This document shows positions 37,332 to 56,340 of a stretch of DNA of 64,000 nucleotides, in pieces. The notes beneath the pieces are model-generated. The model was not told where the DNA came from. It worked only from the letters and a program-made list of their open reading frames with translations, and did no database searches. Origin of the DNA: Octopus vulgaris (taxonomy: Eukaryota); NCBI GenBank assembly GCA_951406725.2, contig OX597814.1:166098001-166162000 (forward strand), given 5' to 3'. Position 1 is the stretch's first letter, and each line of letters begins with the position of its first letter. The position numbers were made by a program, and so were the translations under genes.

Positions 37332-38134
37332 GGATCTTTTCCTTTTGAACGGCACTTTGTAACATAATTTCTAGGTCACTAAAAAGTTTTAAACTTCGTA
37401 TACTGGTAGAATGTGTTTATAAAACATCATTTTCTCTTGGTTTTATTGAGAAAATTCTATAGTTTGTAAGATATTTTGTCTAAAATTTCTAGCATTTCGG
37501 CAATTTTAACCAATCGATTACCTCCATTGAGCTAAAATCATTTGCTGCATCTAAAACTGAGACATCCTGTCACTAACCTTAAACCCCCCCTAACCCTAAC
37601 CCTAATTTTTTTTTTCTTAATTGTTAAATTAATTTAATTGTTACGTGTGTAAAAAAAACGAAAGCAATGGAAAATAATTTAAACAATTAACAAACAAAAT
37701 AATTCTATAATTTTATGCACACGCTTTCCATATGTATACAGAAAGCATGTGTTACGGAAAGTGTGTGTATAAAATTATAGAATTATTTTGTTTGTTAATT
37801 GTTTAAATTATTTTCCATTGCTTTCATTTTTTTTACACACGTAACAATTAAATTAATTTAACAATTAAGAAAAAAAAATTTAGGGTTAGGGGGAGGTTTA
37901 GGGTTAGTGACAGGATGTTATCTCAGTTTTAGATGCAGCAAATGATTTTAGCTCAATTAGAGGCGATTCATTGGTTAAAATTCGAAAAATTAAACCATGT
38001 TAAACAAACGAATTACAATTTTATCAAGAAAGCCAAGAGAAAAAATGTTTTATTTTGACACATTCTACCAGTATACGAAGTTTTAAAGTGTTTAGTTAAC
38101 TAGAAATTGTGTACCGTTCAAAAGGAAAAGATCC
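37332..38134. mobile_element. 803 bp foldback MITE with 8 bp TSD (Merlin-like)
   Basis: GGATCTTTTCC..GGAAAAGATCC termini, TSD aggagaat at 37324-37331 / 38135-38142, ~390 bp arms and internal CCCTAA/TTAGGG repeats. Confidence 0.9.
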
Positions 38135-48423: not shown

Positions 48424-49102
48424 TATATATATATAATAATAACAATAATCCTTGGATGGAATTTATAAACATTTAATGCATCACTATGCATGTTTCCACA
48501 AATCACATGCCTCTGAAGATCACAGTCCCTATCTTTGGGATGATTACAGTGTAGTCCGTAGTATCCATAGGTATTGCATTGATCATCTTCATGTATTCAT
48601 TTCTTCAGGTGATATAACATTAACGGATGCTTACCAGAGGAATGTTTATCCCTTTTGACTTGTGCAAAGATTGGTTGAGTTATATATATATATATCATCA
48701 TCATTTAACATCTGCCTTTCATGCTGGCATGGGTGGGATGGTTTGACAAAAGTCAGCTAGGCAGAAGCCTGCACCAAACTTCTGTAACTGTTTTGGTAGG
48801 ATTTTTACAGCTGGATGCACTTCACAAACTGCTGTTGCCACTGTCAATGCAAAAGCCACCGAGACTGCTGAACAATGGGCAGTCTGTAATTCACAGAATG
48901 CTGCTGCCACTGGCAATGCAAGTGCCTCTGAGACTGCGGAACAAGGGCAGTCCGCAATTCACAAACTGCTGCTGTCACTACTCCTACATGATCTGCTGAA
49001 ACTCCTCTACAGAGATGTGGTAGGCTACAGGGGAATACTATGGGTTCTCATTCCTAAGGTATTTTTCATCGTCGTCGTCATCATCATCGTCATCATCGTT
49101 CA

Positions 49103-49175
49103 GGTCACTGCCTGGAATCAAACACGGACTCTTGTGGTTAGTAGCCTATGCTCTTAACCACTATGCCATATACCC
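49103..49175 (-). ncRNA. tRNA-like module (not a functional tRNA)
   Basis: Minus: A box TGGCATAGTGG, decayed B box GTTTGATTCC, about 73 nt, imperfect acceptor stem, followed by (GAT/GAC)n. Confidence 0.65.
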
Positions 49176-49213
49176 ATGGGCAATTATGGAGTGAATTTTT
49201 AGGGCTAATAAAT

Positions 49214-49375
49214 CTAATATTTTCCTATCCTCTTTAATACCAGTTTCCATATGCCATTCATATCTGCACTCAACCTGCTTAGGAGATTGTTGTGTCCTAG
49301 CATATGTGCTGCTTCTTTTAGTTTCTGTATTTTCCAGTGGTGTTCTCTGTCTATTATTTTAACTTCATCCCACAG
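49214..49375 (-). mobile_element. Penelope-like GIY-YIG endonuclease C-terminus
   Basis: WDEVKIIDREHHWKIQKLKEAAHM..NLL..IW matches the PLE WD.VKILDRE..W..RK.KEA.H motif. Confidence 0.8.
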
Positions 49376-49664
49376 TTCATATAAGTGATATCTACCATTA
49401 TATATAATTTGAACATTGATTTTCTTCTTACATTTCACTTCCACTAGATATATCTTTTTGATTTAATTCAAATATCACTCTATATTTCCCCTTTATTAGT
49501 TTTCTGCTTATTTCTTTCCTTTACCCCTCCCCTTTCTATAGGCTGCCTTTGACGTTATAAATTCTCTAACGGTTTTTTAATAAAACTTAATAGCATTCTG
49601 TTCATAATTATACACATCCATCACATTCTGTTAAAATGTCTTATTGATGAGTTTGGTTTCTTTC

Positions 49665-49763
49665 TTTCTTTTCCCGATGAGAAGATTACATTGTTTTACA
49701 CCATTTATTTCTTTGGAATAATACCAATGTTGTCTTCGAAATATATGTTGGAAGTAAAAGAAT
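49665..49763 (+). ncRNA. Degenerate type I hammerhead-like motif
   Basis: ttttc CCGATGA gaagattacattg..caatgttgtcttc GAAA tatatg TT ggaag. Stem II pairs 12 of 13 bp. U4 is absent. Confidence 0.6.
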
Positions 49764-49812
49764 TTGAATAACGCCTGCGTTTAACCGCATTAACAAAATA
49801 TATGTTGTACAG

Positions 49813-51837
49813 CAGGGGTGTGTAATTTATGGCCTGTGGGCTGCATGTGGCCCACCACAGAGTTTTCAGTGGCCCACAGAAGCATTCAGCAAGAAAAATT
49901 TTCCAAGTCTAAAATTTTCATAAATTGATCAGTTTTCTCTTTGCATCAATAAGATCTGTAATGTTCTGATCCGAGAAAACATGGGCCCTCTTAAAAAGCA
50001 CAAAATCGAAAAAGAATGCTGCGCATTCAATGAAGACTGGAAACACAAATATTTGTTCAATAATTCAGGGAATAAGGCAGAGTGTTTACTGTGTCATGAG
50101 ACAGTTGCCATATTCAAGGAATACAATTTGAAATGACACCACCAAACAAAACATGGTGAGTTTGGTAGTCAAATGTCCAAGAAAAAATGCAGGAAAAAAA
50201 GCTGCTGAGTGTGTTGTGAAGCTGAAGAAGCAACAGACCATATTTACGAAGCAATTGACATGTCAGGATAGTACTACAGAGGCAAGCTACATGGTTGCAT
50301 ACTACCTTGCTAAAAACAAGCCATTTTCTGATGGTGAATTTGTTAAGCAGTGCTTGGTTGTGCAAGTGTCCTGTGCCCTGACACAAGAAGCAAATTTGAA
50401 ACCTTTTCATTATCAAGGACTATGGTGCAACACATAGACTTAATTAGTGACGAACTAACAGAACAGCTGAACACTGGGAGTAAAAATTTTATTTGGTTTT
50501 CTTTGGCACTGGATGAGAGCAATGTTACTTATCTTTGAGGAATTGATGAAAATTTCATCATCACAGAGGAACTACTTAGTTTGGAATCAATGAAAAATAC
50601 AACCACTGTTTAAATGTGTTGTGGATTGTGTGGAGAAGAGTGCCTTATTATGGAATACAATGGCAAGCATTACAACAGATGGGGCCAGAGCATTTACTGG
50701 AAAAAATGTAGGTATGATTAAACTTTTAGAGAACAAGTTAAAATCAGAACATCCAGACAATGATATCTTGTCTTTTCAATTTATTTTGCATCAGGAAAGC
50801 TTCTGCAAAACCATATTGAATCTAAAGCATGTGGTGGATCCTGTTGTGAGCATGGTGAACACAATCAGAGCAAGAGCACTCTACCATCAACAATTTAAAT
50901 CTCTGCTAGTGGATAAGGAAGCAGAACATGGAGATGTGATTTACCACAACAGTGTTTGGTGGTTGAGCCTGGGCAAAATGGTAAAACAGGTTTCTGAATA
51001 ACAGAATGAAATCTTCCTCTTTCTGGACATGAAGGGGCCTTCATGTGATTTTGTAACCAAAATGGGATGTGAGGAGTGGAGATGTGAGATAATGTTTGCA
51101 GCTGATATGTTTGAGAAATTGAATGAATGGAATGTGACATTGCAGGGAAAGGGGTTGTTTGTACATGAAATGTTTAGGCATGTGAGATCATTCAAAACAA
51201 AAGTAGATTTATTTGCAAAGCAAGCTGGTGAGGGCAAGTTTTATCATTTCCTTTTATTAAGAAAACAAAGAAGTGTTTCTTCCAAGATTAGGGATCATTT
51301 TCTGAGTTTGGAGGATGAGATCAAAAGAAGGTTTCAGGGTTTTAAGAAAATTGAGCCTGATTTAAATTTGTTATCTTATCCTTTCACTGCTGATATTGAT
51401 ACAGCACATGAGGAGGTGCAGTTTGAACTAACAGACATGCAGTTAGATCACATGCTGAAAGTAATGTTTAACTCTGTGACATTGACAGAATTTTACAAAT
51501 CTCTATCTACTAACAAATTTCCATGTTTGAAGAAATTTGCTGGGAAAATGTTTTCTATTTTTGGATCCACATATGTTTGTGAGCAAAGATTTTCTTGCAT
51601 GCAAATCAACAAGAGTAAAAAATAGATCCTCTGTGAGTGACATAAACATGCAGGCAGTGATGAGTATCTCAACAAGCAACCTCACAACTGATTTCAAAAG
51701 ATTTGTGAATAAGTGTGACAGGTTACATTTGTCTCATTAAATTACTTATGCTGGCTGATGTGTAATTTGCACATAAATGAATTTAATGAAGCCTTTTCTG
51801 TGTACCACTATTGTTTTAGTTTCATTTATTGTTATTA

Positions 51838-51886
<49 letters not shown>

Positions 51887-52017
51887 GTAATTTACACTTC
51901 TCATTAAATGAAATGTAATGTTAACTAATGAATATGATCAGTTATAGAAGGTGCAGCCCTCTGCTAACCCCGACCCTCTCAAAGTGACCCCTGAGCCAAA
52001 ACAATTGCCCACCCCTG
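49813..52017 (+). mobile_element. Near full-length decayed hAT transposon (Buster/SPIN/Charlie-like)
   Basis: CAGGGGTG..CACCCCTG TIRs. Transposase pseudogene at ~49981-51740 with CLLC..KEYNL..H..KH, FSLALDES, ITTDGA, ILHQE, WLSLGK and FGSTYVCEQ.FS. Multiple stops and frameshifts, TSD not preserved. Confidence 0.92.
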
Positions 52018-55000
52018 CTGTTTAACATTTTCTGTTTAATAACCTCTGTTTAACACTCTTTGTGTCATTCAATAAATCATGTGATTTGTAAATACAGGTT
52101 TGAAATAGGACAGAACGTTCATAGACTATATCAATGACAGATAATATGTTTGGCTATGTTATATTAATGAAAAGATATCATGTTGTAAAATGTACATTTA
52201 TATTTTTTTTGCTTTACAAAGTCAATTGGTTAACCCTTTCATTACTATATTTCTGACCAAAATACACCCCTCATGAGTTTCAATTAAATTCTAAAATAAT
52301 CATGAATTTAGACTAGTTTCATTAAATAACTGTAACTTTTTTACTTATCAACATATTAATGTGATATTTGGAACATAATTAAAGAAAGGGTTCTTAATCA
52401 ATTCTATTGCATAACTTTTATCTCAAAGTGACTTTAATTACAGGTAAATCCAGGTAAACTTAGAAAAAGGTAAAAATATCAAAATTTTGTTTAATGCGTA
52501 TAGGAAAATGTTTATGACAACAATAATAATTTGTAGAGTCAAATGTGTGCAAGCAGATAAATGGTCATTAGTAACAAAATAAAAGTGAAATCAGCTAAAC
52601 ACACATGCATTTAAACTGGTGGAAATTACTCTGTTGATACTAGACCAAAGCTAGAAAAAAAATCAAGGGAGAATGAAATAAGATAGCTACCTGTCTCTAC
52701 TAAGACAGCTAATGAATAGTCTGCAAAGAATTTGATTTTTCTTTAAATAGCCAAAAGGTGGCTCAACAAACTATTAACTTCTTATTGGCCAAAATTTCTA
52801 AATGGTAACTTTAATACATGTATGTAACAAGACACTGAAACCAAAGTTGTTACTTACAATATGCATCATCATCATCATCATCATCATCCTTGTTTAATGT
52901 CCGCTTTCCATGCTAGCATGGGTTGGACGATTTGACTGAGGGCTGGTGAACCAGATGGCTGCACTAGGTTCCAATCTTGATCTGGCAGAGTTTCTACAGC
53001 TGGATGCTCTTCCTAACGCCAACCACTCCAAGAGTGTAGTGGGTGCTTTTACATGCCACTGGCACAGGGCCAGTCAGGTGGTACTAGCAATGACCTCGCA
53101 TGAATGTTTTTACGCATGCCACTGGCACAAGTGTCAGTAAGGTGACACGGGTAACGATCACGCTCGAATGGTGCCTTTTACATGCCACTGGCATGAAAGC
53201 CAGTTAGACGCTCTGGCAACGATCACGCTTGGATGGTGCTCTTAGCACCCTACTAGCATGGGGCACAAGTGCCAGTAAGGCGACACTGGTAACGATCACA
53301 CTCGAATGGTACCTTTTATGTCCCACTGGCATGGAAGCCAGTCATTGAATTTGATTTCAAACTGACAATCTTTAATCAGATGAAGAGGCATTCTTTGAGT
53401 CAATGAAAGAGTCTCTATGTATTGATTTGACTTGCTACAAATATCAGTTAATTATACCTTAAATCACATATTAGTGTCTTAGAAAAGAAAATACATGTTA
53501 AATAATATAGCTCTAGTTATACTATACATGAAAAAAAAAATAATAAAAGTCAATATAGTCATTGCTGGAACACTTTTGGTCATAAGTTTGCTCAGTCAGA
53601 GCTGATCTGGAGTTAAACAACTACAACAACAAATGATAATTTCTATCTTCCTACAAAAGTCCATCTGTTTAAATACAGTAGAACTTGAAATTGTCCTGAA
53701 TGAAGACTACAATATTTCTAATACTAAGTGAGTAAATGTCACTTCAAAGTGAGCTCTTTCTACTTCAAAGCGAGATTTCTGATTCAAATTAATTTATGTC
53801 ATTTTAAAGTGAGAACAATGATTTCAAAGTGAGATTAATACAAAAAGATTTACTTAACAGGAAATATAAAATCAAAATCAAAACATCAACTCTTTGTGGT
53901 AAATTTAATGTAATGTCATCATTTATCTTTCACAAGTTGAGTGATTGACTGTCATTTAATGCATGGTGCAAATAGGCATACATCCCATACATCACATCAC
54001 ATCTTTTGCCTTTGGGGAAAATTACTTGTTTTTTTTTAATTTTATATTGTCTAAAATTATAGTTTATTGTCCTTAAATTAATGCCTATATATGAACTAGG
54101 TCATTGTAATCTAATCCCCCCATTATAAAAATTTATGAACAGATCACAAGTGATGTTGGTCATAGGCATTTTTGACTGAGAGAAAACGAGTTATACAGTG
54201 GGAACTAACTCTCTTCATTGCCACAACTGTTAATTAAAAAATAGCAGTTTCTTTTATTTTGTTTTGTGTTTTATATCACAGCATTATATCATTATATTCT
54301 CTGATTGACAATCTTCTCTATTTCATCCTCTGTATGGAAAGATACGTTGTTTATTACCCGTTAAATTGAGTAAGTTTGTCTTGTTAAAGTAAAATATACA
54401 CATATTGAAATCACTATTTTCTCTTTATTCTCACTTTGAAGTGACATGTGTTCATTTAGAATCACAAATATTGTGGATATTTTTATTGTTTTTGATGGCA
54501 TGTGCATTAGGTATGCAAGCAAACACCATACTGTTTATTATGCAGAATTACTTAATTTCTGAACAAAATGTATGTTTATATACAAACAAATTTATTATTT
54601 CAGTATATTTACTTAGTGATTTGTTTACTACCACTTCAACATGCTGCATGAAGCTACAACTTGCTGATGATGGTCAGTAAGGTAGAAACATGTTAGGAGT
54701 TGTCTCCTATACACACTGGAAAAATATTAAAAAAATGTTATTCATCAATTAAATATTGCTTTTTCCCCCCATTACATATTTTACTCTGCCTCAAATTTTT
54801 CATGATAGCACATATTAGAAATGCTGACAACCATTTGTTTTCTTTTTATATTTTTATATCCCTCTATTCTGCATTCAAATTCTGCAAGGCTCTTCAATTA
54901 TTTTCTATCTCTCTAACTAGTTTCAATCTGGCTGCAGATTTGTTGGAGAAGTGCCTTCAGAGGTTTTTAATACCCAATACATTCTCTGATACTTATTTCC

Positions 55001-55780: not shown

Positions 55781-56340
55781 GAAATCGATTACTTCTACCT
55801 TTTCAGGACGACTAAAGACTAAATCAGGTATCAGTTTGGAACCTCCTATAATATAAGAAGGCTCCACACTGACACCTCAATTGTAGTCTACAGCTTCCTT
55901 CACTACCAGATTACAGATTTTATTGTGTCTGGCAAGCTGTGGCCCTATAAGAGAGCCACAAACTCCACTGACATGAAAGATCATCTCCACTCCTACTCTA
56001 CACCTTGGACACATGGAGTCCCCTTGGCCTCCACATGTCAAGGTCTCTCAGGTGGGAAAAACATTGGAGCGCATCTTGAGAAGACTCAAGAAGCACCTCT
56101 CTGTAATCTCACCCAGTCTACTTATTCAACTATTGCCAATTGCATCCCCACGAAATGCCGCCGCACACGCCCCATGCACCGGTTGGGCTGCCCATCTACG
56201 GGAGTGCACCAGCCGAAAGTCAGGGTCATATTCGGTAGCATCAGCAGGAGGCAACAGCAAATCAAAGGATGCTATCAATTGCTGATTCTGTTCGGCTAAT
56301 CCTGCAGAATCCGCAATCTTTTCAATGGAGGCGTAACTTG
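55781..56340 (-). mobile_element. R2-like retrotransposon C-terminal fragment
   Basis: My minus-strand translation: LKMRSNVFPT*ET..CPRC..EMIFHVSGVC..ARHNKI..V.VEP..LIPDLV..VIDF (CCHC, RHN, PD..D), with three TGA stops. Confidence 0.75.

What the first reader, a model, noticed from the sequence alone, without database searches (positions are those of the whole stretch)
49067..49375. Penelope-like endonuclease 3' end followed by a tRNA-like Pol III module
Seen on the minus strand in order: GIY-YIG C-terminus and stop (49214), about 40 nt, a ~73 nt tRNA-like module with A/B boxes, then (GAT/GAC)n. No SINE body follows the module. Established: PLE terminal repeats usually carry hammerheads in this position. 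Inference: this family may use a tRNA mimic as a Pol III promoter or RNase P/Z processing signal instead, or may target sites upstream of tRNA-like sequences.
Basis: partly seen in the sequence, partly recalled or inferred. Interest (0 to 1): 0.7.

Follow-up and report, generated by a model that had tools for sequence, protein, structure and literature searches.

The report
Penelope retrotransposon with tRNA-derived promoter module

Summary
Bases 49375-49229 (-) encode the last 49 residues of a Penelope/Poseidon-type RT-endonuclease (82% identical to an Octopus vulgaris protein). A 73-nt tRNA-like module follows (49175-49103), then (GAT/GAC)n.

Reads and contigs from four organisms show that the ORF-module junction is a fixed, multicopy family feature. 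It is therefore not a lone SINE head or a chance target site. Box A is perfect and most copies keep the box B core, while the T, D and anticodon stems are broken. That fits a Pol III promoter rather than an RNase P/Z mimic; promoter activity is untested.

The claim 'instead of a hammerhead' is not supported. This copy seems to end about 27 nt after the microsatellite, before the usual hammerhead position, and a relative encodes a hammerhead-compatible motif at its ORF start. I could not see what follows the microsatellite in other copies. The stop at 49214 is a frameshift in this copy; most copies stop 8 nt later.

Verdict: a new variant of a known kind, interest moderate.

The parts
49229..49375 (-). 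Last 49 in-frame codons of a Penelope/Poseidon-type RT + GIY-YIG ORF; this copy is 5'-truncated at about 49375
   Evidence: 88% and 82% identity to P0001 and P0002. Loose ends behind 49375 in all 4 runs continue the endonuclease frame seen in P0001 (table 7).
49206..49228 (-). End of the ORF: a one-base loss near 49230 gives this copy a stop at 49216-49214; most copies stop at 49208-49206
   Evidence: insertion behind 49230 in 231 of 560 reads and behind 49231 in 91 of 574 reads of X23; at 49207 the other letter makes up 96-99.5% of depth in the 4 runs.
49176..49205 (-). 30-nt fixed spacer. Its end and the module start form a 12-nt palindrome (49171-49182; one mismatch in this copy), after which many copies carry an inverted module start
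   Evidence: continuous depth; loose ends behind 49182 (49 contigs in X1, 452 reads in X23) read as the inverted module start.
49103..49175 (-). tRNA-derived module: box A 49168-49158, box B 49124-49114, loop CT-ACT-AA at the anticodon position, stems partly broken
   Evidence: not called by ARAGORN or Rfam.
49066..49097 (-). (GAT/GAC)n microsatellite
49041..49067 (-). 27 nt after the microsatellite, single in the window, with an ATG; possibly the last surviving part of the pLTR before the copy breaks off (inferred, not shown)
   Evidence: the region was skipped.
49376..49572 (.). A different, less abundant repeat (B) joined to the 5' break; not part of the PLE frame
   Evidence: X23 depth falls from about 860 (49342-49362) to about 100 (49384-49404); loose ends before 49374 show B's own flank in X1 and X6, sharing a few bases with the PLE at the joint.

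Best explanation
The stretch is a 5'-truncated remnant of a high-copy Penelope/Poseidon-type retrotransposon whose family carries a tRNA-derived box A/box B module 30 nt behind the stop codon, in its terminal repeat, where it likely serves or served as an internal RNA polymerase III promoter, probably alongside rather than instead of a hammerhead. SHOWN: identity of the ORF; a fixed multicopy ORF-spacer-module junction in four organisms; intact boxes with broken stems; 5' truncation; inverted 5' copies. INFERRED: (1) the module was captured once, likely as a tRNA-type SINE head, and has since been copied with the element by target-primed reverse transcription; (2) Pol III would make only short RNAs (module, microsatellite, predicted hammerhead, ORF start), since it is unlikely to read through a 2.5-kb ORF; (3) such RNAs would carry the ORF-start region that the Anolis Poseidon protein needs as template, so they could be mobilised in trans as SINE-like copies; (4) this copy lost its hammerhead by breaking off about 27 nt past the microsatellite.
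For:: depth is continuous over 49103-49375 in 4 of 4 runs (4 organisms, 4 studies; X1 may be the window's own source). Of 24 listed pieces (of 11,045), 4 have at least 31 letters in both the ORF and the module (X3 records 10-12, X6 record 17), with 18-27 other letters each, so they come from other loci. At 49207, 84-89 contigs per DNA run carry the family letter. Peak summed depth, module to endonuclease, is 0.95, 0.94 and 1.14 in the three DNA runs (not a copy number). Loose ends at 49199, 49231 and 49234 continue into the same junction from both sides. Box B position 49120 carries the canonical base in 62-88% of depth. T-stem pairs 51:63 and 52:62 are mismatched here, in the majority letters, and in an independent loose-end consensus of 178 X23 reads. 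Inverted 5' copies are a PLE hallmark (PMC8557442). The pLTR holds the promoter for the next tandem unit (PMC6765202). The Poseidon hammerhead lies at the ORF start, and the RT needs the first 172 nt of the ORF (PMC11167929); among 79 related proteins (31,975 residues, both readings) the only hammerhead-compatible window is residues 18-32 of the near-identical P0034 and P0059 (2 of 1000 shuffles). A precedent for SINE capture into a terminal repeat is Helenus/Cassandra (PMC10886601).
Against: No transcript start or end was seen: table 6 is empty and both strands are about equally covered in X23, so promoter activity is not shown. The family's own hammerhead was not seen: no convincing core in the window, the reads were cut at 49102, and a peptide search for antisense read-through of other copies gave nothing usable. 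P0034 is only 52-60% identical over the endonuclease and falls outside the 11-row clade (98/98) that holds the window piece. P0022, a closer relative with a core-like antisense peptide, failed the strict test. In the RNA run the module is about 1.8 times as deep as the endonuclease (1635 vs 910), so module-only copies probably exist and some could be an independent SINE. Kept boxes could also reflect recent capture rather than selection.
Confidence: 0.6

Rival explanations
1. Passenger: a tRNA-type SINE head inserted into the 3' region of a successful master element and has been carried along without function; transcription comes from a Pol II promoter.
For: 59-66% identity to local SINE heads; broken stems; no discrete RNA ends; the same junction data fit.
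Against: Box A, the box B core and the 33-nt spacing persist in four organisms while the stems decay; no SINE body follows; one loose-end row (131 X23 reads, agreement 0.46) suggests copies that begin at about the tRNA +1 position.
Confidence: 0.22
2. Replacement: the family has no hammerhead and the module has taken over its role in making unit-length RNA, as a Pol III start.
For: No convincing hammerhead core in the window; the family's downstream part is unseen; hammerhead cleavage is dispensable for PAc insertion in vitro (PMC11167929); unchecked earlier notes report ribozyme-free tRNA-bearing PLE-type elements elsewhere.
Against: The copy appears truncated before the expected site; hammerheads were reported in all PLEs of this type examined (PMC4209133); P0034 has one at its ORF start. 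I also recall, without a call to support it, that octopus repeats of this kind run on into a hammerhead core.
Confidence: 0.1
3. tRNA mimic: RNase P and RNase Z cut around the module to release unit-length RNA from tandem transcripts.
For: tRNA length and layout; a register shifted by one base gives 5 of 7 acceptor pairs.
Against: T stem 3 of 5 pairs in this copy and in the majority letters; standard acceptor register 2 of 7; no cloverleaf as the predicted fold; no ARAGORN or Rfam call; no pile-up of ends at 49175 (though a fragmented cDNA library is insensitive and the 3' end of the module lies at the cut edge).
Confidence: 0.05
4. Targeting or chance: the PLE inserts upstream of tRNA-like sequences, or a SINE head landed here once.
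For: Inserts of several repeat families are dense in the window.
Against: The same spacer and module follow the ORF across many contigs and four organisms, and the module is a decayed family sequence rather than varied host tRNAs.
Confidence: 0.03

Closest known systems
Penelope/Poseidon-clade EN+ PLEs, e.g. Poseidon of Anolis carolinensis (PMC11167929; PMC8557442)
   Same: Single ORF with RT then a C-terminal endonuclease and no Neptune/Nematis-type linker zinc finger (relatives P0015, P0034); 5' truncation; inverted 5' copies; hammerhead at the ORF start in a relative.
   Different: A tRNA-derived box A/B module and a triplet microsatellite directly behind the stop; not mentioned in the passages read.
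TRIMp3 elements Helenus, Ajax, Cassandra (PMC10886601)
   Same: Small-RNA-derived Pol III promoter inside a terminal repeat, not a functional tRNA, proposed to arise by SINE insertion.
   Different: Those are non-coding LTR elements with PBS and PPT; here the module rides on a coding PLE.
Schistosoma SINE-like hammerhead retroposons (reviewed in PMC6765202)
   Same: Pol III promoter followed by a hammerhead, working in tandem arrangement: what a Pol III transcript of this pLTR is predicted to look like.
   Different: They are non-coding and no link to a PLE ORF is given in the passages read; the hammerhead here is inferred.
Animal non-LTR retrozymes (PMC7229834; bioRxiv 10.64898/2026.07.22.740005)
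   Same: Non-autonomous derivatives of PLE pLTRs.
   Different: Defined by tandem hammerhead units; no tRNA promoter is mentioned in the passages read (0 hits for tRNA in the preprint).
Octopus tRNA-derived SINEs (Ohshima and Okada 1994, seen only as a citation in PMC4758252 and PMC10886601)
   Same: tRNA-type head with boxes A and B; 59-66% identity to one local family's head.
   Different: No shared body or tail follows; fixed to a PLE ORF. I could not test whether the module matches OK, OR1 or OR2.

Membership tests
EN+ PLE, Penelope/Poseidon clade | [quoted passage not shown] | tested here: met
   By homology: the window piece matches the C-terminus of RVT_1-bearing P0004, P0015 and P0034. 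Pfam GIY-YIG is only sub-threshold; the window holds just 49 aa.
EN+ PLE, Penelope/Poseidon clade | No extra zinc-finger motif in the RT-EN linker (present in Neptune/Nematis) | tested here: met
   Read by eye in P0015 and P0034; criterion from PMC8557442.
EN+ PLE, Penelope/Poseidon clade | 5' truncation and inverted 5' copies | tested here: met
   loose ends at 49375 and 49182.
EN+ PLE, Penelope/Poseidon clade | Partial tandems forming pLTRs; optional 30-40-nt tail | not testable with these tools
   No genome held; scans of other collections empty.
EN+ PLE, Penelope/Poseidon clade | Type I hammerhead in the pLTR | tested here: inconclusive
   No convincing core in the window; downstream region skipped; compatible motif in relatives P0034 and P0059 only.
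tRNA-derived SINE | Box A and box B 30-35 nt apart | tested here: met
tRNA-derived SINE | tRNA-unrelated body and LINE-type tail after the head | tested here: not met
   No match to local SINE bodies; other families not excluded.
tRNA-derived SINE | Head is the element's 5' end, with unrelated flanks upstream | tested here: not met
   A large share of copies continue into the PLE ORF. A subset may start at the head (loose ends at 49171 and 49182).
Functional tRNA gene | Cloverleaf recognised by tRNA finders | tested here: not met
   (window copy; majority letters assessed by hand).
RNase P/Z-cleaved tRNA mimic (mascRNA type; features recalled) | Intact acceptor stem and T arm | tested here: not met
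   T stem 3 of 5 pairs, acceptor 2 of 7 or 5 of 7 if shifted.
RNase P/Z-cleaved tRNA mimic (mascRNA type; features recalled) | Discrete RNA ends at the module borders | tested here: inconclusive
   None in X23 (table 6); library not suited.
TRIMp3 (Helenus) | Non-coding, two LTRs, PBS and PPT | tested here: not met
   The module is attached to a PLE coding frame; PBS and PPT were not searched for.

The most novel reading that the evidence does not exclude
A protein-coding Penelope element has built a tRNA-derived Pol III promoter into its terminal repeat and thereby spawns its own SINEs: short Pol III RNAs holding the RT-binding start of the ORF, copied in trans. It would be the autonomous parent type of tRNA-bearing Penelope hitchhikers and, in the boldest form, would have dropped the hammerhead (that last step about 0.1).
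Probability: 0.3. Interest if true: 0.72.

Novelty: new variant of a known kind. Interest (0 to 1): 0.5.

Why it matters
How PLE RNA is transcribed and cut to unit length is still open. The studied pLTR promoters are assumed to be Pol II (recalled), and the role of the hammerhead is unclear. A high-copy family with a tRNA-derived promoter at the pLTR position offers a direct test of Pol III use, and a route by which PLEs could give rise to SINEs. It also matters for annotation: many octopus 'SINE' or pseudo-tRNA calls may be pieces of this PLE (O. vulgaris: PLEs 6.83% of the genome in 190 families, supplement of PMC13282606). This particular copy is dead.

Tried and rejected
No genome was available. 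Pattern scans of metagenome, viral and prokaryote contigs found 0 matches. The search for related loci gave 314 and 10 pattern hits, none confirmed. Rfam gave only microsatellite-driven miRNA matches and two chance snoRNA matches. The hammerhead core pattern in the window gave 3 matches against 1.86 expected; a looser scan gave 11, none with more than 2 stem II pairs and none near the locus. An attempt to read the downstream part of other copies through spurious antisense proteins failed: no hit, and one low-complexity chance hit, P0048, rejected. P0022's core-like antisense peptide failed the strict descriptor and its shuffles pass at 48 of 1000, so it was not counted. PDB search gave only a weak RT match. 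Earlier-findings look-ups by sequence, place and a long word list were empty. Nine literature searches showed no paper describing a tRNA module in the pLTR of a coding PLE. The library lacks most subscription journals, and Repbase, Dfam and SINEBase could not be searched, so the consensus may already be deposited there. Supplements of the bioRxiv preprint and of PMC8557442 were not seen and may bear on this.

Full report
Setting. The window is animal DNA rich in SINEs and microsatellites. No genome is held. The nearest named protein is from Octopus vulgaris, so an octopus is likely; the source organism was not determined.

The ORF. The minus strand from 49375 encodes 49 residues that are 88% identical to P0001, 82% to P0002 (O. 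vulgaris) and 67% to the 806-aa P0015. P0004, P0015 and P0034 carry RVT_1 and end in a CxC...H...H endonuclease with no extra linker zinc finger (read by eye). This is the Penelope/Poseidon layout described in PMC8557442 (passages). Pfam itself scores GIY-YIG only at E=0.23 in P0034 and finds nothing in the window piece. In a 21-row tree the piece groups with P0001 and P0002 (99/98), though only 38% of its columns are filled. It is the only fragment of this ORF in the window.

The junction is a family feature. I laid four runs from four organisms and four studies on 48985-49585 at 80% likeness or more: three contig sets and one raw RNA run. X1 may be the window's own source. Between 2,691 and 4,800 records were laid per run, and depth is continuous from 49103 to 49375. 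Of 24 listed pieces (of 11,045), four have at least 31 letters in both ORF and module, each with 18-27 other letters, so they are other loci. At 49207, 84-89 contigs per DNA run share the family letter. Peak summed depth, module to endonuclease, is 0.95, 0.94 and 1.14. The tool warns that this is no copy number, and the module ratio may be underestimated because this copy is near the likeness cut-off. In raw RNA reads depth is about 1,600 on the module, 550-600 across the junction and 860-910 on the endonuclease. Among 24 listed loose-end rows (of 843), those at 49199, 49231 and 49234 continue the same junction, and none shows the ORF end running into something else. A one-off SINE head and site targeting are therefore rejected.

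Corrections. The reads show one more base near 49230 and a TAA at 49208-49206. The stop at 49214 is thus a frameshift of this copy and the family spacer is 30 nt; P0001 ends with the same number of residues. Upstream of 49375 other copies continue the endonuclease frame, while this one joins a different repeat that has its own flank elsewhere. It is 5'-truncated, and the other half of that repeat is not at its 3' side.

The module. It is 73 nt long. Box A matches the consensus in PMC8969392 (passages) exactly, the spacing is 33 nt, and box B has two mismatches here and one in the majority. Stems in this copy: T 3 of 5 pairs, D 3 of 4, anticodon 2 of 5 (3 of 5 with majority letters, by hand), acceptor 2 of 7 (5 of 7 if shifted). 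The same two T-stem mismatches appear in a separate loose-end consensus of 178 reads. A caveat: 95 difference rows were not shown. ARAGORN, Rfam and RNAfold do not see a tRNA. It is 59-66% identical to the heads of one local SINE family, but their body does not follow. Kept boxes with decayed stems is the signature of a promoter rather than of an RNase P/Z substrate (inference). Many copies have an inverted module start behind the palindrome at 49171-49182 (49 contigs in X1, 452 reads in X23), matching the inverted 5' copies of PLEs. One mixed row (131 reads) hints at copies that start near tRNA +1. No pile-up of RNA ends was found, and both strands are covered about equally.

The hammerhead question. 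The window has no convincing hammerhead core, but this says little. In the Anolis Poseidon the ribozyme overlaps the ORF start, at the far end of the pLTR, and the protein needs the first 172 nt of the ORF as template (PMC11167929, parts 1-2 of 4 read). PMC4209133 (passages) reports hammerheads in the pLTRs of all PLEs examined. After the microsatellite this copy has 27 nt that are single in the window, then unplaced DNA, and then a common SINE; I infer that it breaks off here. The laying tool skipped 48985-49102, so the family's continuation was not seen, and an indirect peptide route failed. A back-translation test of 79 relatives found one hammerhead-compatible site (core, stems I and II, short stem III) at residues 18-32 of the near-identical P0034 and P0059 (2 of 1000 shuffles). 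P0022 failed the test. P0034 is a sister lineage at 52-60% identity, not the family itself. I also recall octopus repeats of this kind continuing into a hammerhead; that comes from no call. I put the odds that complete copies have both elements at about 0.75.

Mechanism. Most likely a tRNA-type SINE head was captured behind the ORF and spread with the element, as proposed for Helenus and Cassandra in LTRs (PMC10886601, passages). It sits where tandem PLEs keep the promoter for the next unit (PMC6765202, passages). Pol III is unlikely to read a 2.5-kb ORF, so it would give short RNAs containing the predicted hammerhead and the RT-binding ORF start. These would resemble the Pol III-plus-hammerhead retroposons of Schistosoma and could be copied in trans. 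All of this is inferred. The main rival is a functionless passenger.

Novelty. Nine searches showed no description of a tRNA module in the pLTR of a coding PLE. Also consulted: the retrozyme preprint 10.64898/2026.07.22.740005 (part 1 of 5 and passages), PMC7229834 (passages), PMC4758252 (passages) and PMC13282606 (passages and a supplement search). Repbase, Dfam and SINEBase were not searchable. Unchecked notes of this scan describe non-coding tRNA-bearing PLE-type elements in other genomes (8 of 13 shown); I did not test them, and they are leads only. Verdict: a real new variant of a known kind, interest 0.5.

Noticed in passing
window 49810-52020 (+): Decayed hAT-type DNA transposon with short terminal inverted repeats and a frameshifted transposase; Pfam Dimer_Tnp_hAT E=0.0027, below cut-off. 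No clear 8-bp target duplication by eye.
   Followed up: partly
window 49376-49572: Unidentified AT-rich repeat family (B) present in all four runs at lower depth; no significant Pfam match for the neighbouring ORF 49553-49768.
   Followed up: partly
window 49374: In RNA run X23, 59 reads from 30 start places switch strand at exactly the 5' break point of this copy; unexplained (table 5).
   Followed up: no
window 55877-56047 (-): Short frame with a Cys/His pattern followed by RHN, resembling the zinc knuckle of R2/R4-type retrotransposons (motif recalled); no Pfam hit.
   Followed up: partly
window 48690-48980 (-) and about a dozen other places: Copy of an abundant SINE-like family with a 69-nt internal tandem repeat and an ATG-repeat tail; at least two other tRNA-headed SINE families occur in the window.
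   Followed up: no
window 37589-37896: Near-perfect 144-nt inverted repeat (95%) with a 20-nt loop.
   Followed up: no
proteins P0034/P0059 residues 18-32: Hammerhead-compatible sequence lying in frame inside the predicted N-terminus of a related PLE protein.
   Followed up: yes
run X23: A>G and T>C are the commonest change types in the RNA run (25 and 29 places, against 10-11 and 10-13 in the DNA runs); could be RNA editing of repeats or species difference, with no matched DNA.
   Followed up: no
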